From IMG/VR virus record IMGVR_UViG_3300045988_165575, positions 1-37,825 of that record: a stretch of DNA of 37,825 bases, one strand, 5' to 3'. The translations under genes and the position numbers were made by a program. Shown here one piece after another: positions 1 to 37,825 of this stretch. The stretch's first letter is position 1. Each line of letters begins with the position of its first letter. The notes under the pieces are model-generated. The model ran no database searches. It was not told the origin of the DNA and was given only the letters and a program-made list of their open reading frames with translations. Source of the stretch: a virus.

Positions 1-45
1 CTTTTAATCAAGGTGTCCGGAGTTCGAATCTCCGATGGATCACCA
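1..45 (+). tRNA. 3' part (positions 32-76) of a tRNA, anticodon loop consistent with Lys-UUU; 5' half lies upstream of the window
   Basis: The 45 nt parse exactly as: loop cuUUUaa, stem strand tcaag, variable loop gtgtc, T arm cggag/ttcgaat/ctccg, acceptor strand atggatc, discriminator a, CCA. Confidence 0.7.
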
Positions 46-52
46 AAGAGAA
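1..52. repeat. attL core (direct repeat copy 1)
   Basis: Identical to 37774-37825. The true repeat length may be larger because the window is cut at both ends. Confidence 0.85.
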
Positions 53-3130: not shown

Positions 3131-4341
3131 GTGCCCTCACCGACCTTCTGAGCCGCCAGAACCTTGTCCTTGAAGCTGAGCTCCCACGTCTCGCCGTTTT
3201 TGAAATCGGGAACTGTGCCGATATATTTGGTGTCGGCGGGCAGAGTGACGGTGATATTGCCGCTCTCGGCAAAGGTCAGGCGCATCCAGCACTCGAAGGC
3301 ACCTTCCGGATAGCTTAGATTCAAGGTCGTGACATCGGTGAGGCGGTACTCGGTGTTGTCGGTGAGGGTTATGTTTGAGCCTTCAGAGATCTTTTGAGGG
3401 GTTATAAGGTTGCCATTATACGTAAGAACCCCATTAGAATCAGAAAGACCATCAAGTACAGACTTATTACTATGCTCGTGGGCTTTTTGTATAAGCCAAT
3501 CTAAAGCGCTGGATACTTTATTAATATTAGACGGGAAAGTTTCAAGAGTTGATGAAAAACCTACAACAGAAGCATCCATGTTTATAAAATTAACTGTCCA
3601 ACTATCTTGCTTATCGGCATCTATAATAAATCCCGTATTGCCGTCAAACAATATAAACTCATAACTATCTTCAAACCGTATAGTTAATGGAAGCAAATAT
3701 TGATCAGTTCCGTCTGTCGAAACTACCAAAACTTGCTTGCCCGCTTTGTAAGCCTCATCTATTTGCGCGTAGGTCTTGTCATGGGAAGTAATCGTATATG
3801 CATCTGCCCCGCTTTGCGCCTGCACATTAACAATAAAAAGTTCTGACCCTGTTGAACCTCCGCCACCTATAACCTTGCCATCGTATAGCAGCGTGCCAGT
3901 GTCATCGGCGGTCAACAGGTCAATGACCGACTTGTTATCATGGCTGTGCCGTGCGGCAGTGTTAAGAGCTATCTCGGCGGCAAGGCTGTGACTCAACCGC
4001 TCTGTACCGTCGGGGATTGACACTTTGGCCGTGCCCGTTATCATCGGCGCATAGCCGACTATCTCACCCGCTCTGAATGCGACAAGCTGCGCCGCCATAT
4101 TCCCGGGCTCGGGCACGATATCGCTCGTTATTTTGACCGTCACATAGCCGTCCGTAGGAGTCAACAGCTCAGTTTGCAAATACTCGCCAACTGTTGATTC
4201 AAAATAGACTCTGTAGCTGTCCGCGCCCTCAAGCTCTGCCGGGATAGGCAGAGCAAGCAAGGTAAAGTTATTTTCGGCTCGATATCCAACGTCATACCCG
4301 CGCGGGCGGGCATAATCAACCGTTATCGTTCTCGTTTGCAT
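3127..4341 (-). CDS. Tail fibre protein with duplicated HxHxNKSV(I/L)D motif
   Basis: The start was moved to ATG 4341 (GGAGG 9 nt upstream). HSHDNKSVIDLL and HEHSNKSVLDGL motifs are each followed by G.L.Y.G..I. Confidence 0.6.
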   Translation of the reverse strand: MQTRTITVDYARPRGYDVGYRAENNFTLLALPIPAELEGADSYRVYFESTVGEYLQTELLTPTDGYVTVKITSDIVPEPGNMAAQLVAFRAGEIVGYAPMITGTAKVSIPDGTERLSHSLAAEIALNTAARHSHDNKSVIDLLTADDTGTLLYDGKVIGGGGSTGSELFIVNVQAQSGADAYTITSHDKTYAQIDEAYKAGKQVLVVSTDGTDQYLLPLTIRFEDSYEFILFDGNTGFIIDADKQDSWTVNFINMDASVVGFSSTLETFPSNINKVSSALDWLIQKAHEHSNKSVLDGLSDSNGVLTYNGNLITPQKISEGSNITLTDNTEYRLTDVTTLNLSYPEGAFECWMRLTFAESGNITVTLPADTKYIGTVPDFKNGETWELSFKDKVLAAQKVGEGT

Positions 4342-4549
4342 TCTTTTCCGCCTCCTCGTTCTCGCCCTCCACGGGCGTTTTTTCGAGCTCTGAGAGCATA
4401 TCGGACAACAGTTCGATTTTGCCGCAGATTTTCGCAAGCTCGACCTTGTTGACTTCGAGCTGCTGCATTATTTGAGAGTTGTTCTGCTGTAGAGCTTCGC
4501 CCTGCGCTCTAAGCTCCGCGAGCTTTTGATTGATTTTTAATTTTGTCAT
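4316..4549 (-). CDS. Small coiled-coil tail-module protein
   Basis: 77 aa of heptad-like, Q/E/L-rich sequence with an acidic tail. A GGTGG RBS precedes the start. Confidence 0.5.
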   Translation of the reverse strand: MTKLKINQKLAELRAQGEALQQNNSQIMQQLEVNKVELAKICGKIELLSDMLSELEKTPVEGENEEAEKNANENDNG

Positions 4550-4577
4550 GTTGTCGCCACCTATTAATCAAGTGTTT

Positions 4578-6743
4578 TTACGTGAGCAGTTTCGCTGGGT
4601 TGCTACCAAACTGCGCATAAAGACCGTTATTGTTCACGAACAAGAGCGCGGTCTTGTTATCGCTGGTTGTTAATTTCAACGTAACTTCACCCGCTCTCGG
4701 CTGATAAAGGTCAAGTCTTGCTGTTACTTCGCTGTCTTTATTTCGTACCTCTATCGCTCCCGATGGAGTGTTAGTTTTGGGAATGCCCAACCCGAAGTCC
4801 ACCCGGCACACATTAAAAGCATCCTCGTCCGATAACCTACGATAGTGTTGCAATCCTGCGAACGTGTTGGTTTCAAAACTATTTGACACAAGCGTTCCAC
4901 TTGCCGCCGTTTTGCCCTTCGTTACAACAAAATACTCGCTCGACGAGCCGAATTTGTTTTCCGCACTACGAACGCGAAAGCCCTTATCCTCTTTGCACAC
5001 AACGTCCGTGTAAGCATCACCGCTGTCAATACGCACGCCTTTTGTGCTGTCAATGCAAATGTCATACGTCAAATTCGAAAAGGGGAAAGTCTGGCTGTCA
5101 ACAAATCCGATAAAACCCGATTTTGTTTCGCCAAGTTCTCTTTCTAATCCGAGTACAGGTAGAGGGCTTATTCCTAACGATACGTACCTGCTTGTATTGA
5201 TTATTTTAAGGTTGTATTTTGAGCCTTTAACACAAAAGACACCTGTAAGGTCTGCGTCGGACGCAATAATCTTTCCCGTGTCCAAGTTAAAGGAAAACTT
5301 CCCGGTCGGCGACGAGAGGATATCCGTAGTGATATAACTCGCGGATATTTTGTTCGCGGCAATGCTTCGGATAACCGCGTCACCGTCTTTTGATACACCG
5401 TACTCCCAGTTCGGGGATCCGTTGTTCCAACCGTTATTAGTCCAGGCATAACCGCCGGCGTTGCGGCAGTAGATAGTGTTGCTCCCCTCGAGCGTAGGCT
5501 TGTCATGGTAATAGGTTATAACCGCGCCGTTGCTGTCCGCTTTACGCGTGACATATAAGCCCATGCTGTTTGCGATGGTCTCGTTCAGCGCGAGGGTCGC
5601 CTGTTCGTAGTCGTTGATTTGCGCTACCTGTTGGGCGCGGGTCTGCTCGAGTACCGCCTGCTGCTTCGGTGTAAACGCGCCCATTGTGGCATATCCCGAC
5701 TGCGTTGCCGTTTCGCCCTTGCCCTCAAGCTTCGTGCAGCGGTTCTGTGACTGCCACTTGACATTTGTCAACACGACTTTCTTCGTCCCCTGAGCCGTCT
5801 CAAAGTTCATCACATCGAGCGGTCTGAGGTGCGGGAAAGAGTGTGTAGTGCAGGACATAGGCGTGTATGTAAGACTGCATCGCGCGGTTTTGAGTTCCGT
5901 CGCCAGTGTGCTGAGATTCATATCACTCTGCGCAAGGAGATTGCCCTCAATGTTAAAGGCATAGTCCTTTGTGCCCGCGAGGTATTCGGTCTTGTTCTCG
6001 TCGTTTCCGACGATGCGCACGCCGGAAAACACGATGTTATTTTCGGCAAAGTCTGTATTGCCGGAAGTAAAGCGATCTGAAGCTTTTATAACCGTGTGCT
6101 TGGCATTTGTCGCATACCACCCGCCTGTCAGCTTGCCATCATAGTCGATATACAGGCTCACGCCCATAAGCTCCGCAGCCCAGACAAGCACCTGACGATA
6201 GGTCAGATTGTCCGCCTCCGGGCGTTTTGGTATCGACACACCCCGATGCAAAGTGTTCGTCGGGAGTTTCTGCGACACCCCGCATTTTGTACAGGCATCG
6301 GCGATTATCTGATACAGTGTTGCAGGATAGGCAAGCTCAGTATCATAGGCTCGGTTGAACTTCGCCATGCGGTCATAAGCCGTTATTTTGATGCTTCTGA
6401 GCTTGCGCGGAGGGCTGTCCACCGTGTAATAGCCGATAGGCACTGTCTCCGTTGTCGAGCCCGTTGAAAAGCTTGTAGTGACATACAGCTGTGCGCCCTC
6501 GAACACCTTGTCGTCAAACGCGCCGTCGGTATTCTCAAGAGTAAAACTCATCTCTGACATACACGCCGAGCCCAAATCAAGCTTGCTGCCCGTGACACTC
6601 GACCAGTCCACCGTTACCGCGCCGATAATGTCTTTGTCGGTGATATTAAATGCCATGCCTTTGGTAGGCGTACAGAGAATATTGACTGACTGCACCACAT
6701 CCTCTCGCAGAGCCGCAAGCCCGGCAGAAGTTATTGGATACAT
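4578..6743 (-). CDS. Tail tip protein (Tal-like / prophage tail protein)
   Basis: 721 aa, positioned after the Dit-like gene and before the fibres. Confidence 0.55.
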   Translation of the reverse strand: MYPITSAGLAALREDVVQSVNILCTPTKGMAFNITDKDIIGAVTVDWSSVTGSKLDLGSACMSEMSFTLENTDGAFDDKVFEGAQLYVTTSFSTGSTTETVPIGYYTVDSPPRKLRSIKITAYDRMAKFNRAYDTELAYPATLYQIIADACTKCGVSQKLPTNTLHRGVSIPKRPEADNLTYRQVLVWAAELMGVSLYIDYDGKLTGGWYATNAKHTVIKASDRFTSGNTDFAENNIVFSGVRIVGNDENKTEYLAGTKDYAFNIEGNLLAQSDMNLSTLATELKTARCSLTYTPMSCTTHSFPHLRPLDVMNFETAQGTKKVVLTNVKWQSQNRCTKLEGKGETATQSGYATMGAFTPKQQAVLEQTRAQQVAQINDYEQATLALNETIANSMGLYVTRKADSNGAVITYYHDKPTLEGSNTIYCRNAGGYAWTNNGWNNGSPNWEYGVSKDGDAVIRSIAANKISASYITTDILSSPTGKFSFNLDTGKIIASDADLTGVFCVKGSKYNLKIINTSRYVSLGISPLPVLGLERELGETKSGFIGFVDSQTFPFSNLTYDICIDSTKGVRIDSGDAYTDVVCKEDKGFRVRSAENKFGSSSEYFVVTKGKTAASGTLVSNSFETNTFAGLQHYRRLSDEDAFNVCRVDFGLGIPKTNTPSGAIEVRNKDSEVTARLDLYQPRAGEVTLKLTTSDNKTALLFVNNNGLYAQFGSNPAKLLT

Positions 6744-6747
6744 AACA

Positions 6748-7143
6748 TCACCCCTTTCGCGCCACGATTTTAAAGGTCACATTGTCAACAACATTCAGAC
6801 TGCTGTTGTACAGCGGCGCACTTCTGTTGCCGACATAAAACTCTTTTGTTACATATCCGCCCTCGAGCATATTTAAGTACTTGACCGTTATATACTCCGG
6901 ATTGAACATTTTCAGAATCTTGCTCGCGTTCGCTATGGACAACCCGGAAAATTTAAGCGTTACCGCGTCGGTCTGTCCTATGCGTTTTTTGTGCATAACG
7001 ACATCTTCGGTACGCCCTGCGTCGCTGGCCGAAGCGTCCTCAAGCTCCCATTTATATCCGTCCTCTGTGTCAGGATATACCGGCATAGTTACGCCGTCCA
7101 CGGTAGCTATCGGATTGTCGCCGGGATTAAAAGCGGTTGCCAC
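6748..7143 (-). CDS. Putative distal tail protein (Dit-like, short)
   Basis: 131 aa with a GTG start and a GGTGG RBS. Assigned by position as the first tail gene after the tape measure. Sequence assignment is weak. Confidence 0.35.
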   Translation of the reverse strand: MATAFNPGDNPIATVDGVTMPVYPDTEDGYKWELEDASASDAGRTEDVVMHKKRIGQTDAVTLKFSGLSIANASKILKMFNPEYITVKYLNMLEGGYVTKEFYVGNRSAPLYNSSLNVVDNVTFKIVARKG

Positions 7144-7162
7144 TGCTGTTCCACCTTCTTTC

Positions 7163-7191
7163 TTGACATAAAAAATAAAACATGATAAATT
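7163..7191 (+). promoter_or_regulatory. Sigma-A-type promoter of the lipoprotein moron
   Basis: TTGACA (7163-7168), a 17-nt spacer ending in TGa, and TAAATT (7186-7191). An AAGGAG RBS lies at 7201-7206. Confidence 0.6.
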
Positions 7192-7214
7192 AAAAAGAAA
7201 AAGGAGAAATTCTG

Positions 7215-7823
7215 ATGAAAAAATTCATTGCTTTACTTATCGCAGGTGTTTTGCTGATTGGGCTTTGCTGATGCGGCAATTCGGCAAACACCGATTCACT
7301 GTCCACCACTTCGAACGATATCAGCAAAGTCGATTTGCCGAATGACCATTACGGCGAGGGAATGTACAAGGTCGGAAAAGATATTCCTGCCGGAGAATAC
7401 TGGATAATCGCAACAGAAAAAGACTACTCGGGATATTTTTGCGTGTCGTCCGACAGTTCCGGAGATTCGATTATCTTTAATGAAAACTTTGACACTTGGG
7501 TTTATGTCACCGTCAAAAACGGCGAGTATATAGAGATTACGCGAGCGGAAATGTGTCCGTCGGAAAAAGCTCCAGATATGCATTTCAACAGTTCCGCCGT
7601 GCTCGAAGGGATTTACAAGATTGGAAAGGATCTTCCTGCCGGAGAGTACAAGCTCGTTGCCGCTGAGGTGGGAAACGACGGTTATTACGCCGTGCTGTCT
7701 AGTTCGTACAATTACAGCGACAACATCGTTGCCAACGATAACTTCAGCAACAATGCATATATCACTGTCCAAGATGGACAATATTTGCAGATTTCCAGAG
7801 CACTTGGCGAAAAAGTAGACTGA
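7215..7823 (+). pseudogene. Lipoprotein moron with an in-frame TGA (7269-7271) between signal peptide and mature domain
   Basis: The reading frame gives MKKFIALLIAGVLLIGLC-stop-CGNSANT..., in frame with the 162-aa ORF at 7335-7823. The mature part is a tandem duplication of a G.YK.GKD.PAGEY module. Confidence 0.65.
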
Positions 7824-7843
7824 CGCAATGTTACAACAAAGGA

Positions 7844-7870
7844 AAAGCCCTCTCAATCAAGAGGGCTTTT
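7844..7870. terminator. Bidirectional hairpin terminator between the moron and the tape measure gene
   Basis: aaaagccctc (7844-7853) pairs with gagggctttt (7861-7870), and both flanks are T-rich. It overlaps the tape measure stop codon. Confidence 0.65.
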
Positions 7871-10637
7871 ATTCGTTTATCGGAACGATTACTTTACCGG
7901 CGCGCATATTGACATTTCTAAGCTCGTTTACAATATCGCCGCGCTCGTTCATGACGACAATCGTTACGGTTCCGCCATTGCTTCTCTCCATAGCCCTTTC
8001 GACACCGCGCTCAACACCCAACGAAACGCCGTCCACAATTTGGCTGTTGTTGGCAACTGCTGTCCTGCCTCCGATTTGTCCAACCATCTCGGGTCCGCTC
8101 TCACGGGCAATAAAGAGTTGTCCGGTATCAGGATATCCGCCGGATGCATACTGCTGTGCCCCGGTAGATCGGGTTTTTACTGTCACATCGCAGCTTACAC
8201 CGTTTATATTGTTGATGTTATTTTTAAGCTTGACGAGCTGATCCGAATAATACTTAGTCTTTTTGCTTGCGTCGTCCATTGCAGCCGATGTGTTCTTAAT
8301 AGCTTTGCGCGACTGCTCTAAAGCGTCTTCGGCATGTTCGACTTCTTTTTTAAGCGCTCGATATTCCGGACTAAGCTTTTGCGATATCCAGTTCGCGACA
8401 TCACGAAGGCCATCTGATACGCCCTGATTTTTCTTGTCAAGTTCTGCCGCCTTTTCGTTCAGCTTATTTTGTGCCTCGGCAAGCCTATCTGACGCAACCT
8501 TGTAATTGTCAGTCGCCGTCTTGTTGTCAATTGTTGCTTGATAAAAGGCTTTGTATGATTCAGTAAGAATGTCTTGCATTGCAGCCATTTCAGCCTGTTT
8601 CTTCAAAGCCTCTATGACTCCGTAAATTGAGTCCTTAGTCTCCACAACCACGCCTTTGGTCTCGTCGATACTCAAATGCAATCCGTCGATATTCATGGCA
8701 TTCAGGGTGTCAACCTTGACGCGCATCAAGTCCATTTCATAGGCGGACTTATTTGACTTTTCGCTCAACTGATATATCTCGTCGGTGAGCATTTTAACTG
8801 CGCCGTACTCCGCGCTGACAGTGTTCAGCCCCTCTATCTTCTGATTAAGACCGTCCATATTTTCTTTTGTTCTTTGGATAATCGCCTCAGAGGCCGCAAT
8901 GTTTTCTGATAACACCTTATAGGCATCGGAGGATTGGTAGGTCTTTTCTGCAAGTTCATCTGCACCCTGTTCAAAACCTATGATAGCTCCCGTGATTGCA
9001 CCAATTGCCGCGACGACCAGTCCGGCCGGACCCAACGCCGCATACATAGCCACTGCAACGGCAGTAAGTCCTACTGCCATAACCGCCAGTTTGGCTTTGG
9101 CGTCTTCTGCGCCCGCGCCGAGTGCCTTAAAAGCGGACTTTGCCATCACCAGCGATGCTGCGAATCCTGCCGCGCCTATCATGGCTTTTTGAGTTGCCGA
9201 CAAACCCGCTCGGAACTGCTCCAAGCTGTCTTTGGCGGCACCCGCGGCTTTCTTCCATCCATAGCCTAACGCCTGCGCTGTGCTTCCTCCGGTCTCCTTT
9301 ATCCAAGAAAAACTCTCGGTAAAAGTAGAGACAACTCTCAGCCCCTTAAAGCTATTCCACACACCTTTTGCGCCGGAGTACCATTTGCGCAGCACCTTTA
9401 CGCCGAAAGCGGCGGCCGCGCCGGCTGCAACTCCCTTTATCACCGGCTCAAGCGCCGAGACTGTGGATTTCACCTTTTTAAGCTTCTGCTTCAGCTCCTC
9501 TGCGCGCTCTGCAAGCTTCGGGTCAATAACGCTGTCAGCGTTGGAAAATGGGCTCTTAAAATTGTTTCCTCCGCTCGATACCGTTGTGCTGCTTCCGCCG
9601 CCGTTGCCGCTATCAGATCCGGTGTCCGGCGTTCCGAGACGATTGATTTCATCGATGCCGAGCAAAGCGTTTTTATAATCCTTCGCCCTTTTCGCCGCAC
9701 TGCCGAGTTTTGTGGACACTTGCTGTGTACTGTTGGCGAGCTTGGAGGTATTTGACGATGTCCGGCTTGTTGCACTTGACGTACCAAACAATATAGCCAT
9801 GACTTGCCCGGCTTTTTCGGCGAGCGCGGTCAATCTTTCAAGCAACGCCGTAACATGCGGGATACACTGCTGCAAAGCCGGCGCAAACATTGACCCGAGC
9901 GCACTTGACAACATTTTTGTCTGAGCTTTCAAAGCAGCCTGCGCTCCTGCGAGGGTGTTCGCATATTTCGCGGCATCCCCGGTCTGGAATGCCGTCTCCC
10001 GCATGATGCCTTGTGTCGTGGCTATGCGCTTTTCTGCGTCGGTCAGCGTTGCTGCAGTCTTGCCTATCGATGCCGCGTATTCGTCCCATATAACGGACAG
10101 GTTTTTTGTAACGCCGGCGTTGTCGACAAGAATGCTGTTTTCGTTTTTGATACCTTCGGCTGCACTCTTTATAGCTTCGCCCATCGTCATACTGCCCTGA
10201 CGGTTAAACGCCGCCGAATCTTTAAGGTTAGTCAGTATGGACTGTGTCTGCTCGTCGGAATACCCTGTCGCCGCGAGGCTCTTATACGCGGTGTAGGCGT
10301 CCATCATCGGGATAAGACCGTCTTTGGTATACGATTTAAGCCACGCTTTCGCGGCGTTCAGGTCTTTTCCCTGCGCGGTCAATATGCTCGACAAGCCCAT
10401 CTGCGCGGCTTCGTTTTCCGCATATGCGTCCGTCAACTTCTTGACCTCGCTTACTACTTTCTGTATGGCCGCAACGGCAGCGGTAGTTTTTATGCCTGTA
10501 AAAAGCTTTCCGACACCCGCTCCCGTGCGCGTTGCCTGCTGTTCAAGCGACCCCAGTCTCTTGTTCGCCTTATCGATCTTGGCGTTAAAGTCCTTGGTGT
10601 TTGCTGTAATCAGCACTTGCAGTTCTTCAATCGTCAT
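7869..10637 (-). CDS. Tail tape measure protein
   Basis: About 920 aa of Ala/Gly-rich helical sequence with a central hydrophobic segment, located after the G/G-T genes. ATG 10637 (AGGTGAG RBS) is preferred over the track start at 10682, which has no RBS. Confidence 0.85.
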   Translation of the reverse strand: MTIEELQVLITANTKDFNAKIDKANKRLGSLEQQATRTGAGVGKLFTGIKTTAAVAAIQKVVSEVKKLTDAYAENEAAQMGLSSILTAQGKDLNAAKAWLKSYTKDGLIPMMDAYTAYKSLAATGYSDEQTQSILTNLKDSAAFNRQGSMTMGEAIKSAAEGIKNENSILVDNAGVTKNLSVIWDEYAASIGKTAATLTDAEKRIATTQGIMRETAFQTGDAAKYANTLAGAQAALKAQTKMLSSALGSMFAPALQQCIPHVTALLERLTALAEKAGQVMAILFGTSSATSRTSSNTSKLANSTQQVSTKLGSAAKRAKDYKNALLGIDEINRLGTPDTGSDSGNGGGSSTTVSSGGNNFKSPFSNADSVIDPKLAERAEELKQKLKKVKSTVSALEPVIKGVAAGAAAAFGVKVLRKWYSGAKGVWNSFKGLRVVSTFTESFSWIKETGGSTAQALGYGWKKAAGAAKDSLEQFRAGLSATQKAMIGAAGFAASLVMAKSAFKALGAGAEDAKAKLAVMAVGLTAVAVAMYAALGPAGLVVAAIGAITGAIIGFEQGADELAEKTYQSSDAYKVLSENIAASEAIIQRTKENMDGLNQKIEGLNTVSAEYGAVKMLTDEIYQLSEKSNKSAYEMDLMRVKVDTLNAMNIDGLHLSIDETKGVVVETKDSIYGVIEALKKQAEMAAMQDILTESYKAFYQATIDNKTATDNYKVASDRLAEAQNKLNEKAAELDKKNQGVSDGLRDVANWISQKLSPEYRALKKEVEHAEDALEQSRKAIKNTSAAMDDASKKTKYYSDQLVKLKNNINNINGVSCDVTVKTRSTGAQQYASGGYPDTGQLFIARESGPEMVGQIGGRTAVANNSQIVDGVSLGVERGVERAMERSNGGTVTIVVMNERGDIVNELRNVNMRAGKVIVPINE

Positions 10638-11348
10638 TTTTCTCACCTGCCCTGTGCCTTGCGGCGTTTTTTGATTTGGCATAAGCGGACATCCGAGCTT
10701 TGATTACCATCCACCCGGTTTGCTGCATGCCGAAAGCTGACGGGAACGCCTTTTCAAGCGCAGGATATTTTTTCGGGTCGTTAAACGCGAAAGAATCAAG
10801 CTGCCCGAGATTCCATATCAGCTGTAACTGCCATTTACGCCGCTCGTTTTCTGCCTTTTGCCTTGCGGATATAAGGTCCTCAACCTCTCCGGCCGACATG
10901 CTCCAGAATTCGTCCGGGGTTATCCCGACCGCAAAAGCGCGAGGTTTGAGATCCGCAACCCACTCGGTCGCCGAGGAGAAGATTACTCTATCTCCTGCTC
11001 CTCGTCCTCCCGCTCCATGTCCGCTATCTGTTCCGGTGTAAAAAAACCGGACACCTTCATAATGCCGAGGAATGTGTCCGCTCTGTCCTCGAGGGTAAAG
11101 CCCTCGGCTTCAAGCGCATCGATGAGCTCATATGTCTTGGGGAGCGTCATATTTGCCTGGTATTTCTGCAGCGCGCCCCAGAGGGTCACTGCAAAGACCT
11201 TTGTGTATGCCAGCTTGTCAAGAGCTTCAAGCAGGCTGCAGCCTATACGGTCTTCCACTTCGATTTTCGTTGCCGTCGTGAGCTTGAGCTTGTACTCCTT
11301 CTCGCCGGCGGTCAATCTATAAAAAGGTGCATTACACGCAGTAAGCAT
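10627..11348 (-). CDS. Tail assembly chaperone G-T fusion made by a programmed -1 frameshift
   Basis: I translated the -1 frame from the slippery site at 11040-11046. It stays open and runs into the 90-aa ORF at 10627-10899. Confidence 0.65.
10983..11348 (-). CDS. Tail assembly chaperone (G-like)
   Basis: 121 aa with an acidic C-terminus, located between the major tail and tape measure genes. Confidence 0.7.
   Translation of the reverse strand: MLTACNAPFYRLTAGEKEYKLKLTTATKIEVEDRIGCSLLEALDKLAYTKVFAVTLWGALQKYQANMTLPKTYELIDALEAEGFTLEDRADTFLGIMKVSGFFTPEQIADMEREDEEQEIE
11040..11046 (-). promoter_or_regulatory. Slippery heptamer T TTT TTT for the -1 frameshift
   Basis: The zero frame reads GGT TTT TTT ACA (11048-11037). 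The frame arithmetic (11348-10899 = 449, mod 3 = 2) matches a -1 shift. Confidence 0.6.
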
Positions 11349-11404
11349 AGTTGTTGTCTCCTTATTTTAAATTTTCGGCGGAGTTACCCCCGCCGATGTG
11401 TTCT

Positions 11405-11824
11405 TTAGCCGCCGGACGAGGTATATTCCTCTATATCCGACGATGGAGTGATTTTTGCAGTAAAGGTCAGCGCCTCTGCGACGCCCTTTCCGGGCATCGA
11501 AAGTGACACTCTGCCTGTCCATGTGAAACCGGAACCGTCCGGGAACAGCAGAATAAAGGTCTTGTCTGCATCCTTAGCTCCCTTGAGGGTCGCCCAGTTC
11601 GTGCCGGTCTTCATACCCTCATAGCCGAAAGTAAACGCCATATCCCCGGGGTCGGAAAGCCCGGGCTTATACTTTCTCTGCGTGTCCTTCATCGTGGTCA
11701 CGTCGATTTTGTCCGATTCGCCGAGCATATCGGGAAAATCAAGCAGACCGGGAACTTCAGCTGCCGCTTCTGCGCTCGCGCCCATTTTCAGAATCACGCC
11801 TATAGAAGTCTGATAATCTTCCAT
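11405..11824 (-). CDS. Major tail protein
   Basis: 139 aa, located immediately upstream of the chaperone genes. The composition looks like phi13/TP901-type major tail proteins. Confidence 0.7.
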   Translation of the reverse strand: MEDYQTSIGVILKMGASAEAAAEVPGLLDFPDMLGESDKIDVTTMKDTQRKYKPGLSDPGDMAFTFGYEGMKTGTNWATLKGAKDADKTFILLFPDGSGFTWTGRVSLSMPGKGVAEALTFTAKITPSSDIEEYTSSGG

Positions 11825-11841
11825 TTGTACTTACCTCCTTA

Positions 11842-12219
11842 TTAACTGCGGTAAAACCGCTTCGTGTTGTTGTCGTAGACTCCGTTATAAAGCAGGACGG
11901 TGCGGTATAACACCGTACCGTCCTGCTGTTCGTCCTCAAGGTGGTTAGGACTGCCGCGAAGCAGACCGAGGCGGAGCATTGCATCGTCAACTTGTCTCTC
12001 GACCTCGTTTCTGCCCTCCGGCGTCGCCATCCACACCTGGATCTGCACGGCGATCCGGGAAAAATGATCCGGACGCGAAGAGGATGGCATTTTAACGGAG
12101 TTATCCATCTGCTTTATCAAACCGTGCCGTTCAAAACTCTGCGGATATTCCGCAGACCATTTCACACCCGGTACGGCGAGTGAAAGCACATCATAAGTCA
12201 CCTGTTCGATATCAACCAT
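11842..12219 (-). CDS. Tail completion / tail terminator protein
   Basis: 125 aa. Assigned from its position between the gp10-like and major tail genes. Confidence 0.5.
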   Translation of the reverse strand: MVDIEQVTYDVLSLAVPGVKWSAEYPQSFERHGLIKQMDNSVKMPSSSRPDHFSRIAVQIQVWMATPEGRNEVERQVDDAMLRLGLLRGSPNHLEDEQQDGTVLYRTVLLYNGVYDNNTKRFYRS

Positions 12220-12694
12220 TTTTCTGACCGCCTTTACGATTTATTTCCTGTTGTATCGCGCGCTTATAGCACTCGAGTATTACCTCGCGATTGTTTATAA
12301 GCGCAGGATAAAGATACGGCTGCGCCTTTTGTCCGCTTATCATTCGCCAGCCGACACCAGGGATTTTGCCGCGCCACTTGTCCGCCTTGTAATGGATCCC
12401 GCCCGGGAGCTCATAAGTATATGTGCCGTTACCTTTAGGACCCGTACCGAATTCCACATAGGCGGCGTATTCAACATTGGTCAATACGCTGCCGATATGC
12501 TTGCTACCCTCGCGCTTGTAGTCGGTATGCAGCGACGCGCGCAAATTGCCGTTATCTACTGGACACAACTCTTTTGCGCTGTTGTTGACTATTCGCGCCG
12601 CCTCGCGCGTGCCGTTTGAAATAGCGGTATCAGTGCCGCCGAGCTTTGCGAGCTTTTTAGCCAGCTCGCCGAGACCCTTAATTTCAATACTCAT
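12212..12694 (-). CDS. HK97 gp10-like head-tail joining protein
   Basis: Starts MSIEIKGLGELAKKL... and contains NVEYAAYVEFGTG, which resemble the HK97 gp10 family. Confidence 0.6.
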   Translation of the reverse strand: MSIEIKGLGELAKKLAKLGGTDTAISNGTREAARIVNNSAKELCPVDNGNLRASLHTDYKREGSKHIGSVLTNVEYAAYVEFGTGPKGNGTYTYELPGGIHYKADKWRGKIPGVGWRMISGQKAQPYLYPALINNREVILECYKRAIQQEINRKGGQKNG

Positions 12695-13055
12695 GGCTCA
12701 CCGCCTTGCAAAGATACAGCGTGTGGCTGTCGTGCGGCTGGATCTCGGTGATTCGGTAATAAGCGCCACCGTATTTCACATAGTCGCCCTTCTCGACAGC
12801 GAGCGTATCGGATGTTGAAAAGGTGGCGCCTTTGTTGCACTGCAGCCCCCATTCCTGCGCCTGCATAGCGTCGGTAACGAGTCGGAAGTTGACAGTAAAA
12901 GAGCCCGCAGGTGTTTCTGCGGGCTTCACTGTTTCGCTGCCGAGCGTTCCCGTCTGTTTGACGGCTTTATAGTGCTCGACTGCTTTGTCTTGAAATACGG
13001 CGCGCTGTGCGCGTCTGAAGGCGTCAGGGATCTTCACAAGAAAAGCCTCCTCCAC
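12684..13055 (-). CDS. Head closure / head-tail adaptor protein
   Basis: 123 aa, assigned by position. The C-terminal ...YRITEIQP... resembles SPP1 gp16-type adaptors. Confidence 0.5.
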   Translation of the reverse strand: MEEAFLVKIPDAFRRAQRAVFQDKAVEHYKAVKQTGTLGSETVKPAETPAGSFTVNFRLVTDAMQAQEWGLQCNKGATFSTSDTLAVEKGDYVKYGGAYYRITEIQPHDSHTLYLCKAVSHEY

Positions 13056-13387
13056 TCGTTGAGCATCACCTTTTCGCTGTCGCTTAGTTCCGCCGTTGTG
13101 GCGAGGTCTGAGTCGCTGTGCTTAAAGCTCACGCTCTGGTCGCCGTCCGTTATGCTTGCAACGGTCTGCGCCGCATCGGTAGAGCCCGGCTGCTGCGTGC
13201 GGTAACGCTGCGCGGCTATCTCTGCCACAAGCAGATCAAGACCGGGGACAAGCTCACGCCGCTTGGTATATCGCAACACCTTTGACTCGACACTGTCCAG
13301 CAGATACCGGGCAGCCGGCAGCGACATTTCCTTACCCAACATCACGCGCATCCGGGCTATGAGGTCGGCCTTGTTCTGCTCTGTCAT
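13034..13387 (-). CDS. Head-tail connector (gp6-like)
   Basis: 117 aa, located directly after the capsid gene. It shows a helical N-terminal pattern. Confidence 0.5.
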   Translation of the reverse strand: MTEQNKADLIARMRVMLGKEMSLPAARYLLDSVESKVLRYTKRRELVPGLDLLVAEIAAQRYRTQQPGSTDAAQTVASITDGDQSVSFKHSDSDLATTAELSDSEKVMLNEWRRLFL

Positions 13388-13388
13388 A

Positions 13389-14501
13389 TCAGCCCACCAG
13401 CCTTGCGGTCATGTCGCTGTCAAGGGTCTTGACGCCGTACAGGATATCAAAGCTGACGCGGTCGGTCTTGTGCTTGATGTCGTAGTCATATACAACCCTG
13501 ATAGCAAGACCGTTCCTGCTCGACGCAATAGCCGCATTATTCGCGCCCATAGGCAGCTCAAGCTGACGGGTAACGAGTGCAAGGCCGTTGCGGTGGAATG
13601 CGAGGGAATGGGTCGTTTTGACGAGATATACCTTAATCGCCGCATCCGAAGCAATGGTGCGATGGATAGGCTGGTCTATCGCGACCTCAGCGACCGCGCC
13701 GCTTGCGGCAGTTGCATCGGCGGCAAATCTGTAAAGATAGCCGTCGAGGATAAAGCCGTCGCCCTTTTTAAAGGTGCCGGTCGCCGCAGTGACATCCGAG
13801 AGTGCGACCTTGGTCTCGCCGGCGGTGCAGGAGACTTTTGCAGCGGTCGCAGTGCCCGCAGTTGCCGCGAGGGTATCGGGGGCATTCTGCGACATATAGG
13901 TGTCAAGACCATAGATAGAGCCGAGCTCTGCTGAGCGCAGGGCGTCGGAATTGCCTGCATATGCGACCTTTGAGAGGTTTTCCGTGGTCAGATAGCGATA
14001 CTTGTGCGTCGGATTGACGAGAAGTCTGCGCTGCTGTATCGGTACGCCCTTGAGGTCAAATGCCTTGGCAATGTTGGCAATGTCCTTGAGGTCGGCCGCG
14101 TTCGCGGTGCCGCTCACGGTGTTGCCGGCGTTTGCGATGCCTTCGGCGATAATATCGCTGTCGATGGCCTGGGATATGGCCTGCACCGCAGGAGATATGA
14201 TCTGCTCAGAAAATGACTTGATGTCGAGGGTCATTTCCTTGGAAGTGACCGGAACGGTGACATCGCGGAAATGGTCAAGGGTCACCTTGACGCTGCCCTC
14301 GTTCACATTCTGGTCTACGGTCTCGCCGACGAAGTTCTTCGCGGAAAACTTCGCGGGCTTGCGGATGGTGATAGTATCACCGACGTGTGCGAACTCCTTG
14401 GAATAGTCCTTGTGGACAAGGTCGGCAGCAACGAGATTGTTCTCGAGCACCATAAGAGCCTCGTTCGCGACTATCTGAGGAGTCAGGAATTTGTTTGACA
14501 T
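13389..14501 (-). CDS. Major capsid protein (P22 coat-like family)
   Basis: The N-terminus TPQIVANEALMVLENNLVAADLVHKDYSKEF...GDTITIRKP is typical of this family. 370 aa. Confidence 0.8.
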   Translation of the reverse strand: MSNKFLTPQIVANEALMVLENNLVAADLVHKDYSKEFAHVGDTITIRKPAKFSAKNFVGETVDQNVNEGSVKVTLDHFRDVTVPVTSKEMTLDIKSFSEQIISPAVQAISQAIDSDIIAEGIANAGNTVSGTANAADLKDIANIAKAFDLKGVPIQQRRLLVNPTHKYRYLTTENLSKVAYAGNSDALRSAELGSIYGLDTYMSQNAPDTLAATAGTATAAKVSCTAGETKVALSDVTAATGTFKKGDGFILDGYLYRFAADATAASGAVAEVAIDQPIHRTIASDAAIKVYLVKTTHSLAFHRNGLALVTRQLELPMGANNAAIASSRNGLAIRVVYDYDIKHKTDRVSFDILYGVKTLDSDMTARLVG

Positions 14502-14519
14502 TTGTTAAATCCTCCGTTT

Positions 14520-15077
14520 TTACTGATTTTTGCGCCAATTCACATAATCGGCATAGTTCTCGGGGGCTTCGCCCGGTTCGGGGTCTCCGCCGCCGTGGTC
14601 GGGGTCTCCGCCCCTCTGTCTGGTTTCGACTTTGTCAAAGAGATAGGCGTCGCTTTCTCTGATTGCCTTGAGCTGATCGTCAAAGCCCTCGAGCTTGCCG
14701 TCTTTGTCGAGTTTCACACTGCCGGGTGTTATCAAGGCTTTTATAGCTCTTGCGTTCTTGCCTTTGGCGGCTGTAATAGCGGCATCGATAGCGGAGTCAA
14801 GTTTCATGGCAGCGATATCGCTGTCATACTTAGCCTTAGCCTGCTTGTTCTCGTTCTGCAGCTGTGTAATTGTAGCCTGCAGTCCGGCGGTATCAACCTT
14901 TTTGAGCTCTTCAAGCTGACTGTCCCGCTCTGCTATCTGGCCCTCAAGGTTCTTGACCTTATCGGACTCGGCGCGAAAATCTGCTTTTGAAACAAAGTTC
15001 TTGCCGATATAGCTCGCTATCTTCTTGTCGATGTCCTCGGTGTGTGCGTCGCCTAAAATGTCTTTAAGCCAGTCCAT
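14520..15077 (-). CDS. Scaffolding protein (GP20-like)
   Basis: The start was moved to ATG 15077 (AAGGA RBS). It begins MDWLKDILGD, followed by coiled-coil sequence, and lies upstream of the capsid gene. Confidence 0.7.
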   Translation of the reverse strand: MDWLKDILGDAHTEDIDKKIASYIGKNFVSKADFRAESDKVKNLEGQIAERDSQLEELKKVDTAGLQATITQLQNENKQAKAKYDSDIAAMKLDSAIDAAITAAKGKNARAIKALITPGSVKLDKDGKLEGFDDQLKAIRESDAYLFDKVETRQRGGDPDHGGGDPEPGEAPENYADYVNWRKNQ

Positions 15078-15164
15078 GTCTGTCCTTTCCCGCGCTCCCT
15101 TTTTACTTGGCCAGTCCCAATATTGCGCGACACCATTTTGCTCCGGGTGGCGGATAAATTTGGA

Positions 15165-15203
15165 TATAAAAACAGCGCTTTGCATTTGACTGCAAAACGC
15201 TGT
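15165..15203 (-). terminator. Internal terminator after the toxin-immunity pair
   Basis: On the minus strand, ACAGCGTTTTGCA pairs with TGCAAAGCGCTGT (13-bp stem, one mismatch) with loop gtcaaa, followed by TTTTAT. Confidence 0.55.
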
Positions 15204-15262
15204 AATTATTATGTTGTAATATGACAAAACCGCTTCGCTTTCGCTTGGCGGCTTGTTATTTA

Positions 15263-15622
15263 TTATTGATCCTCTTCATCAAGAGTATCTTTTCCGAAAG
15301 CCTTTATATAGCTCTCGGTAAGGTCTTTCATGATTATGGGGGCTTCCTCTTCGTCCAGTATTCCGTCAAGGCGACCTTTGAGCAAATCCTCATAGTAGAG
15401 ATAGAGCTCGTCGCTCATGGCTTCGCTGAGATCGTTGTTGTCCACTTCCCACTTTATCAGCGGAAGTACCGCGTTAAGACGTTCGGCTTCTTCAAGGATA
15501 TCCTGATCGAATTCTGTGAGATATGAGTTTTCGAGCAAATCTCCCGTTTTCGGCTGTATACCCGTGCTTAAACGGTCTTCGAGAATTTCTGTTGCTCCCT
15601 GATAATCAAGCTCGTACTTCAT
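15263..15622 (-). CDS. Putative immunity protein for the MuF-fused toxin (very acidic)
   Basis: ATG 15622 overlaps the toxin TGA as ATGA. The protein is 119 aa, with 33 D/E versus 10 K/R by my count. An alternative TTG start lies at 15646. Confidence 0.55.
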   Translation of the reverse strand: MKYELDYQGATEILEDRLSTGIQPKTGDLLENSYLTEFDQDILEEAERLNAVLPLIKWEVDNNDLSEAMSDELYLYYEDLLKGRLDGILDEEEAPIIMKDLTESYIKAFGKDTLDEEDQ

Positions 15623-36492: not shown

Positions 36493-36617
36493 AAGAACCC
36501 CCGGTGCTGGAACACCGAGGGCTCAAGAAAATCAACACACACCTACGACAGAGTGGATTGATATATTTATTATATCACCCGCTCTGAGGAAACACAAGTA
36601 AAGGAGCGGTGTTTTTT

Positions 36618-37773: not shown

Positions 37774-37825
37774 CTTTTAATCAAGGTGTCCGGAGTTCGA
37801 ATCTCCGATGGATCACCAAAGAGAA
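37774..37825. repeat. attR core (direct repeat copy 2); displaced tRNA 3' fragment
   Basis: Identical to 1-52. It is preceded by tatcc, which cannot pair with the anticodon-stem strand tcaag, so this copy is not a full tRNA. Confidence 0.85.

What the first reader, a model, noticed from the sequence alone, without database searches (positions are those of the whole stretch)
7144..7875. Opposite-strand lipoprotein moron inside the tail operon, with an in-frame TGA at the lipobox
A complete cassette on the opposite strand sits between the tape measure and the Dit-like gene. It consists of a promoter (TTGACA-N17-TAAATT with TGa), an AAGGAG RBS, a CDS and a bidirectional terminator. The reading frame gives the signal peptide MKKFIALLIAGVLLIGLC, then TGA (7269-7271), then CGNSANT..., and continues in frame into a tandem duplicated G.YK.GKD.PAGEY domain. 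The gene is therefore either a freshly inactivated lipoprotein gene, a readthrough or sequencing-error case, or a cytoplasmic product re-initiated at TTG 7335. Phage lipoproteins encoded next to tail or receptor-binding genes are known superinfection-exclusion factors (for example T5 Llp). Late transcripts must also cross this cassette and its terminator to reach the tail tip genes.
Basis: partly seen in the sequence, partly recalled or inferred. Interest (0 to 1): 0.6.

Follow-up and report, generated by a model that had tools for sequence, protein, structure and literature searches.

The report
Prophage lipoprotein moron, freshly knocked out
A gut-bacterial prophage carries a small cell-surface lipoprotein gene backwards inside its tail operon, and in this strain one genuine G-to-T change, probably a hairpin-templated copying error, has switched it off; the gene is intact in nearly all relatives and its likely job of keeping other phages out is untested.

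Summary
A promoter-like site, an RBS, a 202-codon ORF and a bidirectional terminator lie on the + strand between the tape measure gene and a DUF6711 (Dit-like) gene. An in-frame TGA (7269-7271) replaces the -1 residue of the lipobox.

In 47 related contigs the gene is intact and this codon is GGA (Gly), giving the lipobox L-C-G-C. The gene is under purifying selection (pN/pS 0.10).

The TGA is not an assembly error. Fourteen checked contigs from several ENA/SRA series carry T and match the window 100%. The nearest intact allele differs from the cassette at this base only.

Recoding is excluded: TGA ends 21 of 46 window genes, including this one, and there is no tRNA gene or SECIS match.

The G>T completes a perfect 10-bp inverted repeat. 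A second, independent GGA>TGA in a relative completes a 9-bp one. Each ranks first among about 90 possible nonsense substitutions, which points to quasipalindrome template switching.

The protein has two Rv1352-type (PF27111) all-beta domains on a lipid anchor. Its function is unknown; superinfection exclusion is inferred by analogy only. The slot is polymorphic, with three alternative envelope-protein cargoes. Overall an ordinary, well-explained pseudogenised moron.

The parts
7163..7191 (+). Sigma-70-type promoter-like site TTGACA-17-TAAATT with TG extension, driving the moron
   Evidence: 10 of 12 matches. The -35 hexamer is invariant in 48 related loci. The platform is shared by the alternative cargo types B and C.
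7201..7206 (+). AAGGAG ribosome-binding site, 8 nt upstream of the ATG
   Evidence: Sequence. Conserved in all relatives.
7215..7823 (+). Lipoprotein moron CDS (202 codons plus stop), interrupted at codon 19
   Evidence: Hits: NCBIfam NF053833 (Rv1352/Rv1906c domain), E 5.5e-16; phrog_23726, E 8e-40. pN/pS 0.10 across 20 haplotypes.
7215..7268 (+). Remaining signal-peptide codons 1-18 (MKKFIALLIAGVLLIGLC)
   Evidence: With Gly restored at codon 19 the lipobox rule is met, with Cys20 as the lipidated residue.
7269..7271 (+). In-frame TGA. GGA (Gly, lipobox position -1) in all 47 intact related contigs; the change is G>T at 7269
7263..7272 (.). Left arm CTTTGCTGAT of a 10-bp inverted repeat that is perfect only with T at 7269
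7320..7329 (.). Right arm ATCAGCAAAG of the inverted repeat (47-nt spacer), the presumed template for the G>T change
   Evidence: This arm is present in the relatives, 57 nt downstream of the left arm.
7275..7346 (+). Ser/Thr/Asn-rich linker (residues 21-44), low pLDDT. Most amino-acid variation among alleles lies here
7347..7562 (+). Rv1352-type all-beta domain 1 (residues about 45-116)
7596..7817 (+). Rv1352-type all-beta domain 2 (residues about 128-201)
7843..7870 (.). Bidirectional intrinsic-terminator hairpin. It ends the moron on + and sits immediately after the tape measure stop on -
   Evidence: The stem is conserved in 46 loci and variation is confined to the loop.
7869..10682 (-). 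Tape measure protein gene (937 aa), upstream neighbour in the late operon
6748..7143 (-). DUF6711 / phrog_1194 131-aa protein in the Dit position, downstream neighbour in the late operon

Best explanation
The cassette is a moron, that is, an independently transcribed accessory gene. It was inserted in reverse orientation between the tape measure and Dit-like genes of a temperate siphovirus. The phage is integrated at a tRNA gene in a gut bacterium of the Acutalibacteraceae/Oscillospiraceae (Clostridia).

Intact protein (inferred from sequence rules). The gene makes a 202-aa prolipoprotein. It is exported by Sec, lipidated on Cys20 and cleaved after Gly19. It is then tethered to the outer face of the cytoplasmic membrane by a flexible linker of about 24 residues that carries two Rv1352-type beta domains.

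This window (shown). A single G>T at 7269 turns Gly19 (GGA) into TGA, so translation stops inside the signal peptide. The allele is real, clonal and very recent, and the rest of the gene is untouched.

Origin of the mutation (inferred, about 0.65). It arose by quasipalindrome template switching. During replication the nascent strand copied the partner arm ATCAGCAAAG (7320-7329). That converted the imperfect repeat CTTTGCgGAT into the perfect CTTTGCTGAT.

Function of the intact protein (inferred by analogy, about 0.4-0.5). It is expressed in the lysogen and blocks adsorption or tape-measure-mediated DNA entry by related phages. On that reading the window strain is a natural knockout.
For: - Gly codon and intact lipobox in relatives: 26 IMG/VR contigs, 19 of 20 metagenome contigs (the twentieth, L080, also has G but is frameshifted), L001 and L086. 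The intact orthologue P0255 is recorded on at least 1000 contigs, named hypothetical protein [Acutalibacteraceae bacterium]; a second intact orthologue, P0256 (187 contigs), is named 'lipoprotein [Caudoviricetes sp.]'.
- Purifying selection: pooled pN/pS 0.10.
- Real allele: the 153-aa truncated call is on 11 contigs. All 14 checked loci (L085, L087-L099, some of which are repeat fetches of the same contigs) have T and are 100% identical to the window over 1-10.8 kb, apart from one mismatch at 9169 and a short gap in L097. One lies in a 100.8-kb host contig.
- Very recent: L086 has an identical tape measure protein and an identical cassette except for G at 7269.
- No sign of sequencing damage: only 14 private SNPs in 12.5 kb, mostly transitions.
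- No recoding: stop usage TAA 25, TGA 21, TAG 0. The gene's own stop is TGA. No tRNA genes and no Rfam hit.
- Moron status: own promoter, RBS and terminator; lower G+C; no cassette in 13 distant relatives.
- Quasipalindrome: T at 7269 gives a 10-bp perfect inverted repeat, against 5 bp with G. Only 0.32% of all substitutions in 5275-17800 do as well. It ranks 1st of 91 possible nonsense substitutions. The independent TGA at codon 143 in L002 completes a 9-bp repeat and ranks 1st of 87. The other 13 private SNPs give repeats of 3-8 bp. The mechanism is described in PMC7202029.
- Extracytoplasmic family: about 40% of the 118 members listed match a lipobox pattern, and most others start with a transmembrane or signal segment.
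- Recurrent prophage cargo: between sheath and tube genes of a myovirus (L040-L042), and next to an HTH repressor (L039).
Against: - Function is not shown. There is no similarity to any characterised exclusion protein and no solved structural relative.
- Many family members are chromosomal rather than phage-borne.
- Independence of the samples carrying TGA is not established. Several accessions are consecutive and may come from one cohort or one person.
- The quasipalindrome idea was noticed after seeing a fold, so the first test is post hoc. The spacers (47 and 24 nt) are, from my own knowledge, longer than in the classic reporter hotspots.
- The L002 allele rests on one contig of about 4x coverage. 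It could be a fold-back library artefact.
- Low-level UGA readthrough cannot be excluded from sequence.
Confidence: 0.78

Rival explanations
1. The TGA is a sequencing or assembly error, and the gene is intact in the real phage.
For: It is a single-base difference from all 47 intact related contigs. Some of the contigs carrying it have low coverage, 1.7-2.7x by their names.
Against: The identical T is present in 14 checked contigs from several accession series: ERZ19694384, ERZ27333804, ERZ1754994 and ERZ17553xx-5xx, and the ERZ914xxx/ERR12935xx runs of PRJEB12449. All are otherwise 100% identical to the window (one has a single mismatch). One has k-mer multiplicity of about 8. Other haplotypes with the same repeat arms show G, so there is no systematic artefact.
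Confidence: 0.02
2. The TGA is decoded (as Gly in code 25, as Trp or Cys by near-cognate readthrough, or as selenocysteine), so a functional lipoprotein is still made.
For: Both nonsense alleles in this gene replace GGA (Gly) codons. From general knowledge, UGA is the leakiest stop codon in many bacteria.
Against: TGA terminates 21 of 46 window genes, including this gene. This is the only in-frame TGA in the 46 genes examined. No tRNA genes and no SECIS or other Rfam match. The two TGAs lie at different positions. Trp, Cys, Arg or Leu at position -1 fail the lipobox rule. GGA>TGA is fully explained by the inverted repeats.
Confidence: 0.03
3. Translation restarts downstream (TTG 7335 or ATG 7362) and a signal-less 153-162 aa protein has a cytoplasmic function.
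For: The ORF downstream of the stop is intact, and gene callers call a 153-aa product.
Against: TTG 7335 has no Shine-Dalgarno sequence, and GAGGGA lies only about 2 nt from ATG 7362. Nearly all full-length family members listed are exported or membrane-anchored. The intactness of the downstream part is expected for a mutation this recent.
Confidence: 0.05
4. The intact lipoprotein is not an exclusion factor. It is another kind of lysogenic-conversion protein, such as a binder of cell wall, glycan or host surface that changes the fitness of the bacterium in the gut.
For: The Rv1352-type tandem module occurs in about 2000 cluster representatives, mostly at the C-terminus of larger envelope proteins and often outside prophages. 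There is a weak resemblance to carbohydrate-binding X25 and collagen-binding modules. There are no PADLOC hits.
Against: The gene sits beside the tape measure and tail-tip genes. In one variant the cargo is exchanged together with the tape measure C-terminal half. The family recurs in three unrelated prophage types, including next to a repressor, where Ltp-type genes lie (PMC3952083).
Confidence: 0.4
5. The G>T is an ordinary random substitution, and its fit to an inverted repeat is a coincidence.
For: The repeat was noticed post hoc. The spacers are long. The RNA-fold z-score of the segment is only -2.2.
Against: In two independent alleles the observed change ranks first of 91 and first of 87 possible nonsense changes. 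The joint chance is about 1e-4. Each occurred in the haplotype background where its quasipalindrome is best. G>T is a rare class among the private SNPs.
Confidence: 0.3

Closest known systems
Ltp of Streptococcus thermophilus phage TP-J34 (superinfection-exclusion lipoprotein)
   Same: A prophage-expressed lipoprotein of a monoderm host. It is built from a lipid anchor, a Ser-rich spacer and a repeat domain, is tethered outside the cytoplasmic membrane, and blocks DNA injection (PMC3952083). The architecture here is the same: lipobox, Ser/Thr/Asn linker, two repeats.
   Different: No sequence relationship was detected. The domains here are all-beta Rv1352-type. The gene lies in the tail operon, not the lysogeny module, although a family member (P0073) does sit next to a repressor. 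Function is untested.
HK97 gp15, the founding moron
   Same: An independently expressed gene inserted in the tail operon next to the tape measure gene. It is expressed from the prophage and blocks genome entry in a manner that depends on the incoming tail (PMC3594210).
   Different: gp15 is a small inner-membrane protein of a diderm host, not a lipoprotein, and is unrelated in sequence. The cassette here is antisense to the operon and ends in a bidirectional terminator.
T5 Llp and the Cor lipoproteins
   Same: Phage lipoproteins encoded beside the receptor-binding or tail genes that prevent superinfection (PMC9586334).
   Different: Those are proteins of about 60 aa that are periplasmic in diderms and jam the FhuA transporter. 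Here the host is a monoderm, the protein has 202 aa and two beta domains, and the only PHROG link to Cor is a signal-peptide match with E 0.22.
Rv1352/Rv1906c domain family (NCBIfam NF053833, Pfam PF27111), phrog_23726
   Same: True sequence membership: 58.6 bits against a cut-off of 25, two copies. PF27111 is precomputed on nearly all homologues. Single-domain structural matches to actinophage 'lipoproteins'.
   Different: The family has no established function. The papers found mention Rv1352 or Rv1906c in proteomic, antigen and vaccine contexts, going by their titles and abstracts; they were not read.
Quasipalindrome-associated template-switch mutations
   Same: An imperfect inverted repeat becomes perfect through a base change that is templated by the other arm (PMC7202029). 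Both nonsense alleles fit this.
   Different: The spacers of 47 and 24 nt are longer than in the usual reporters (my own knowledge). The cases here are natural alleles in metagenomes, so the mechanism is inferred, not observed.

Membership tests
Bacterial lipoprotein (lipobox, PROSITE PS51257-type rule as I recall it) | K/R in the first 7 residues, an uncharged h-region, [LIVMFWSTAG]2-[LIVMFYSTAGCQ]-[AGS]-C, with Cys at positions 15-35 | tested here: not met
   The window allele stops at position -1. With Gly (as in all orthologues) or Ser the rule is met, with Cys20 as the lipidated residue. With Trp, Cys, Arg or Leu it is not. So the ancestral gene is a member and the window allele is a broken one.
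Moron | Own promoter and terminator flanking a gene that interrupts an operon | tested here: met
   Promoter-like site and bidirectional hairpin, both conserved in 46-48 loci. Activity was not measured.
Moron | Extra DNA relative to related phages | tested here: met
   In 13 relatives whose Dit is 56-58% identical, the tape measure gene abuts or overlaps Dit (gap about 29 nt or an overlap) with no cassette.
Moron | Base composition different from its neighbours | tested here: met
   Cassette 43% G+C and CDS 45%, against 49-51% for the flanking tail genes.
Moron | Expression from the repressed prophage | not testable with these tools
   Needs RNA-seq or a reporter in the lysogen.
Rv1352/Rv1906c domain (NF053833 / PF27111) | Profile score above the curated cut-off | tested here: met
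   58.6 bits against 25, two stretches. PF27111 is listed on the homologues. The local Pfam copy lacks this model.
Ltp-type, Cor/Llp-type or other known superinfection-exclusion proteins | Sequence or profile similarity to a characterised member | tested here: not met
   No such family in the Pfam, PHROG, NCBIfam or PADLOC scans. The only link is a signal-peptide-only Cor match, E 0.22.
Ltp-type, Cor/Llp-type or other known superinfection-exclusion proteins | Blocks adsorption or DNA entry of a superinfecting phage | not testable with these tools
   Needs plating and adsorption assays.
Stop-codon recoding or selenocysteine | TGA not used as a stop elsewhere, or many in-frame TGAs, a suppressor tRNA, or a SECIS element | tested here: not met
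   TGA ends 21 of 46 genes and there is one in-frame TGA in all. No tRNA genes. No Rfam match.
Quasipalindrome-associated mutation | The ancestor has an imperfect inverted repeat; the derived base is the complement of the partner arm and lengthens the perfect repeat | tested here: met
   5 to 10 bp in the window, 6 to 9 bp in L002. Each ranks first among all possible nonsense changes.
Quasipalindrome-associated mutation | Raised mutation rate at the site that depends on the partner arm | not testable with these tools
   Needs a reversion or reporter assay.

The most novel reading that the evidence does not exclude
The tape measure/Dit slot of this very common gut prophage may be an exchange site. 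A fixed promoter, RBS and sometimes signal-peptide platform expresses interchangeable envelope proteins:
- the PF27111 lipoprotein;
- an unrelated 274-aa lipoprotein;
- a 301-aa membrane-anchored protein that is swapped together with an unrelated C-terminal half of the tape measure protein.

If these are exclusion factors matched to the tape measure or tail tip of their own phage type, they would define new families of injection blockers in gut Clostridia. The TGA strain and its one-base-different intact sibling (L086) would then be a ready-made isogenic pair for testing this.
Probability: 0.3. Interest if true: 0.55.

Novelty: new member of a known kind. Interest (0 to 1): 0.3.

Why it matters
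Taken alone this is an ordinary event: an accessory prophage gene lost to a point mutation. Three things give it modest value.

1. It is a clean natural knockout. An intact allele one base away exists in another sample, and the lipoprotein is found on at least 1000 public contigs from a common human-gut Clostridia lineage. Its function is therefore directly testable.
2. Two independent nonsense alleles both sit exactly where a quasipalindrome predicts. This is a tidy natural example of templated mutagenesis shaping gene loss in a phage.
3. The slot holds alternative envelope cargoes, one linked to a swap of the tape measure C-terminal half. That is the pattern expected for phage-versus-phage surface defence, a topic that is poorly charted in gut Firmicutes.

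Tried and rejected
- Local Pfam gave only sub-threshold hits, because PF27111 is newer than the local copy. PADLOC gave nothing.
- Fold search of the confident AlphaFold model found no PDB match with E below 1e-3; the best were SIDT1, XepA and ColG tandem beta domains, TM below 0.3. A profile search of PDB sequences found nothing. BFVD gave only single-domain matches to unannotated actinophage 'lipoproteins'.
- The genome-contig scan with the protein returned only signal-peptide matches. The GenBank phage collection held no close DNA relative. By protein it held only two weak Listeria phage hits.
- Exact look-up of the 162-aa TTG-start product found nothing. The 153-aa ATG-start product was the one on record.
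- Recoding and selenocysteine were considered and rejected.
- An oxidative-damage signature was considered and rejected: private SNPs are few and mostly transitions.
- The pattern scans of IMG/VR and the JGI metagenome set found only G alleles. The T allele surfaced only through the exact-protein index.
- The extra cargo genes in L004, L102 and L109 have no informative family hits.


Full report
**1. Observation**

Reading the window directly shows ATG at 7215, then MKKFIALLIAGVLLIGLC, then TGA at 7269-7271, then CGNSANT... The frame stays open to the natural stop, which is also TGA, at 7821-7823.

The consensus scan finds TTGACA-17-TAAATT with a TG extension at 7163-7191. It also finds a hairpin at 7843-7870 that scores as a terminator on both strands. 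Folded as RNA the hairpin gives -18.2 kcal/mol on + and -21 kcal/mol on -, with z-scores of -4.4 and -6.4. AAGGAG lies at 7201-7206.

The flanking - strand genes are a 937-aa tape measure protein (7869-10682, phrog_1535/1686), a 131-aa DUF6711/phrog_1194 protein in the Dit position (6748-7143) and a 721-aa tail protein (phrog_6616).

**2. What the gene is**

With the stop replaced, the protein hits the NCBIfam Rv1352/Rv1906c domain NF053833 (E 5.5e-16, 58.6 bits against a cut-off of 25, two stretches) and phrog_23726 (E 8e-40). Homologues carry the precomputed Pfam family PF27111.

An exhaustive search finds 2016 cluster representatives at E <= 1e-3 and 1220 at E <= 1e-10. The tandem module is usually at the C-terminus of envelope proteins of 200-900 aa.

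Of 118 aligned members, about 40% match a lipobox pattern. Most others begin with a signal peptide or a transmembrane helix, sometimes behind a zinc ribbon.

AlphaFold2 with this alignment gives a confident model (mean pLDDT 87, pTM 0.77). It shows a disordered N-terminal 44 residues followed by two all-beta domains. No solved structure matches with E below 1e-3. Predicted viral structures give single-domain matches to 'lipoproteins' of Gordonia and Mycobacterium phages. The papers found for Rv1352/Rv1906c concern proteomic, antigen and vaccine contexts, judging from titles and abstracts only.

**3. Orthologues and the codon in question**

The best hit, P0001, is 99% identical, 202 aa long, and reads LIGLCGCGN. 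In DNA alignments the codon is GGA.

- All 26 full-length copies in IMG/VR contigs are intact with Gly19.
- All 20 contigs from the JGI metagenome set have G at the first base. Nineteen are intact. The twentieth, L080, has frameshifts that look like homopolymer errors.
- The intact 201-aa orthologue P0255 is recorded on at least 1000 contigs, the longest 986 kb, named hypothetical protein [Acutalibacteraceae bacterium]. A second intact orthologue, P0256 (187 contigs), also carries the name 'lipoprotein [Caudoviricetes sp.]'.
- Across 20 DNA haplotypes the pooled pN/pS is 0.10. Amino-acid changes are concentrated in the linker.
- By a PROSITE-type lipobox rule (recalled from memory), the Gly or Ser versions pass with Cys20. 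The window allele, or a Trp, Cys, Arg or Leu insertion, fails.

**4. Is the TGA real?**

Position 7269 is one of only 14 alleles private to the window among 27 relatives over 12.5 kb. These are mostly transitions, so there is no damage signature.

Exact look-up of the window's tape measure protein returned six contigs. Five have the moron called as 153 aa and one (L086, SRR19065028) as 202 aa. The five carry T at 7269 and a cassette identical to the window. L086 is identical over 7144-7880 except for G at 7269.

Look-up of the 153-aa product found 11 contigs. All nine that were read have T. Every T-bearing locus is 100% identical to the window over 1-10.8 kb, apart from one mismatch at 9169 and a short gap in L097. 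They come from:
- ERZ19694384;
- ERZ27333804 (a 100.8-kb host contig);
- ERZ1754994, ERZ1755342, ERZ1755438 and ERZ1755592;
- three runs of PRJEB12449.

So the allele is real and belongs to one clone. Given the one-base distance from L086 across 3.5 kb of identical flank, it is very recent. Whether the samples come from independent hosts could not be checked.

**5. Recoding excluded**

Among 46 likely genes the stops are TAA 25, TGA 21 and TAG 0. The moron itself ends in TGA. This is the only in-frame TGA in those genes. There are no tRNA genes and no Rfam family at E <= 1 apart from one spurious sRNA match.

**6. How the mutation probably arose**

Folding 7260-7330 showed that the segment around the TGA pairs with a segment 47 nt downstream. 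With T at 7269 the arms CTTTGCTGAT (7263-7272) and ATCAGCAAAG (7320-7329) form a perfect 10-bp inverted repeat. With the ancestral G, the longest repeat through the site is 5 bp.

- Only 121 of 37,578 possible substitutions in 5275-17800 (0.32%) create a repeat of 10 bp or more through the mutated site.
- I then tested the second nonsense allele, found earlier in L002 (ERZ21883285; GGA>TGA at codon 143). It completes TTCCCGCCT/AGGCGGGAA, 9 bp with a 24-nt spacer, against 6 bp before.
- Ranking every possible nonsense substitution in the gene by the repeat it completes puts the observed change first of 91 in the window background and first of 87 in the L002 background.
- The window's other 13 private SNPs give repeats of 3-8 bp.
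- Each quasipalindrome is best in the haplotype clade where its mutation occurred.

This is the signature of quasipalindrome-associated template-switch mutation (PMC7202029). There are three caveats. The first test was post hoc. The spacers are long. The L002 allele rests on one low-coverage contig and could be a fold-back artefact.

**7. Genomic setting**

The window starts and ends with the same 52 nt, which read as the 3' end of a tRNA gene (GGAGTTCGAATCTCC...CACCA). An integrase lies at 36609-37676. In relatives the repeat is followed by a host D-lactate/2-hydroxyacid dehydrogenase gene whose closest named relatives are in the Acutalibacteraceae, Ruminococcaceae and Oscillospiraceae. The window is therefore a complete temperate siphovirus prophage of a monoderm gut Clostridia lineage, bounded by attL and attR.

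**8. Moron status and a polymorphic slot**

A scan with the Dit-like protein returned 68 IMG/VR loci. In 13 distant relatives (Dit 56-58% identical) the tape measure gene abuts or overlaps Dit, with no cassette.

Among 54 classifiable close relatives (Dit at least 97.7% identical; a 55th contig ends at Dit):

| Type | Loci | Cargo |
|---|---|---|
| A | 27 (26 full-length, 1 cut at a contig end) | the PF27111 lipoprotein |
| B | 25 | an unrelated 301-aa protein with an N-terminal membrane anchor |
| C | 2 | an unrelated 274-aa lipoprotein |

Homology to the window ends at 7209 for type B, after the promoter and RBS, and resumes at 9472. So the moron and the C-terminal 400-530 residues of the tape measure protein are exchanged as one block. 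The two tape measure C-terminal halves are unrelated (E 0.04). For type C, homology ends at 7243, inside the signal peptide, and resumes at the tape measure stop.

More distant relatives (L004, L005) carry a 57-aa and a 203-aa gene plus a 60%-identical PF27111 lipoprotein in the slot. The cassette has 43% G+C against 49-51% in its neighbours.

PF27111 lipoproteins also occur between the sheath and tube genes of a myovirus and next to an HTH repressor in another phage. One is in an apparently chromosomal setting.

**9. Mechanism and comparison**

Shown:
- the cassette and its conservation;
- the Gly codon in relatives, and purifying selection on the gene;
- the reality and recency of the TGA;
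- normal use of TGA as a stop;
- the fit to the inverted repeats.

Inferred from established lipoprotein biogenesis: Sec export, Lgt lipidation of Cys20 and Lsp cleavage after Gly19. The TGA therefore abolishes export and anchoring.

Inferred by analogy only: the intact protein protects the lysogen from superinfection. The closest functional analogues are these.
- Ltp of TP-J34: lipid anchor, Ser-rich spacer and repeat domain; it blocks injection (PMC3952083).
- HK97 gp15: a moron next to the tape measure gene whose exclusion depends on the incoming tail (PMC3594210).
- T5 Llp and the Cor proteins: lipoproteins encoded next to the receptor-binding protein (PMC9586334).

None is related in sequence, so this is 'may work like', not 'is a member of'. 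A rival reading, a glycan- or wall-binding conversion factor, is about as likely.

**10. Transcription**

The hairpin lies immediately after the tape measure stop and is conserved. Late transcripts must therefore read through it, or restart, and then run antisense to the moron for about 700 nt to reach Dit. A weak promoter-like site on the - strand overlaps the hairpin, but it is no better than chance. This question is unresolved.

**11. Verdict**

The sequencing-error and readthrough alternatives are rejected. The finding is ordinary in kind: a new member of a known kind. It has three modest extras: a natural knockout/wild-type pair, a templated-mutation signature, and a polymorphic cargo slot linked to the tape measure C-terminus. 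Interest 0.3.

Noticed in passing
window 7144-9471; L102:1760-3934; L109:3050-3900: The tape measure/Dit slot is polymorphic in near-identical phages: 27 loci have the PF27111 lipoprotein, 25 a 301-aa membrane-anchored protein, and 2 a 274-aa lipoprotein. All use the same promoter and RBS. In the 301-aa type the C-terminal half of the tape measure protein is swapped along with the cargo and is unrelated in sequence.
   Followed up: partly
L002:4369-4410 (gene 3951-4559): There is a second, independent GGA>TGA in the same gene (codon 143, in the PAGEY motif of repeat 2). It completes a 9-bp inverted repeat, and the downstream codons are still conserved. It rests on a single contig of about 4x coverage, so it is not confirmed in other assemblies.
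   Followed up: partly
P0006 (118 aa), P0261 (189 aa): These are length variants of the lipoprotein. P0006 looks like an in-frame deletion that fuses repeat 1 to repeat 2 at the shared GKDIPAGEY motif, giving a single-domain protein.
   Followed up: no
window 1-52 and 37774-37825: An identical 52-nt direct repeat at both ends of the window reads as the 3' end of a tRNA gene (T-arm and CCA-proximal acceptor). It is probably attL/attR, with the integrase at 36609-37676. In relatives a host D-lactate dehydrogenase-like gene lies just outside it.
   Followed up: partly
L004:9104-9888 (also L005:3225-4009): In more distant relatives the slot also holds a 57-aa and a 203-aa gene with overlapping stop and start codons, upstream of the lipoprotein. 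Neither has a Pfam or PADLOC hit. The layout is reminiscent of a two-gene toxin-antitoxin or defence pair.
   Followed up: partly
L040:5349-5960; L039:8001-8615: PF27111 two-domain lipoproteins are also cargo in unrelated prophages. One sits between the sheath and tube genes of a P2/Mu-like myovirus. Another sits next to an HTH_3 repressor in a lysogeny module.
   Followed up: partly
window 15619-17358 (- strand); L002:12348-14087: In a relative, the 579-aa Mu F-like head protein carries a precomputed Toxin-deaminase (PF14424) hit in addition to Phage_Mu_F. This suggests a MuF-toxin fusion packaged in the virion.
   Followed up: no
whole window: None of 46 likely genes ends in TAG (TAA 25, TGA 21), although the window is 49% G+C.
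   Followed up: no
L080 (VOFC01003711.1): This copy of the lipoprotein gene has a shifted start and a frameshift at A-runs. These are probably homopolymer errors of the assembly rather than a third null allele.
   Followed up: no
window 7828-7856 (- strand): A weak promoter-like site (TTGAGA-17-TAACAT, 9 of 12) overlaps the terminator hairpin and points toward Dit. It is no better than chance in shuffles, but it is relevant to how the late genes downstream of the terminator are transcribed.
   Followed up: no
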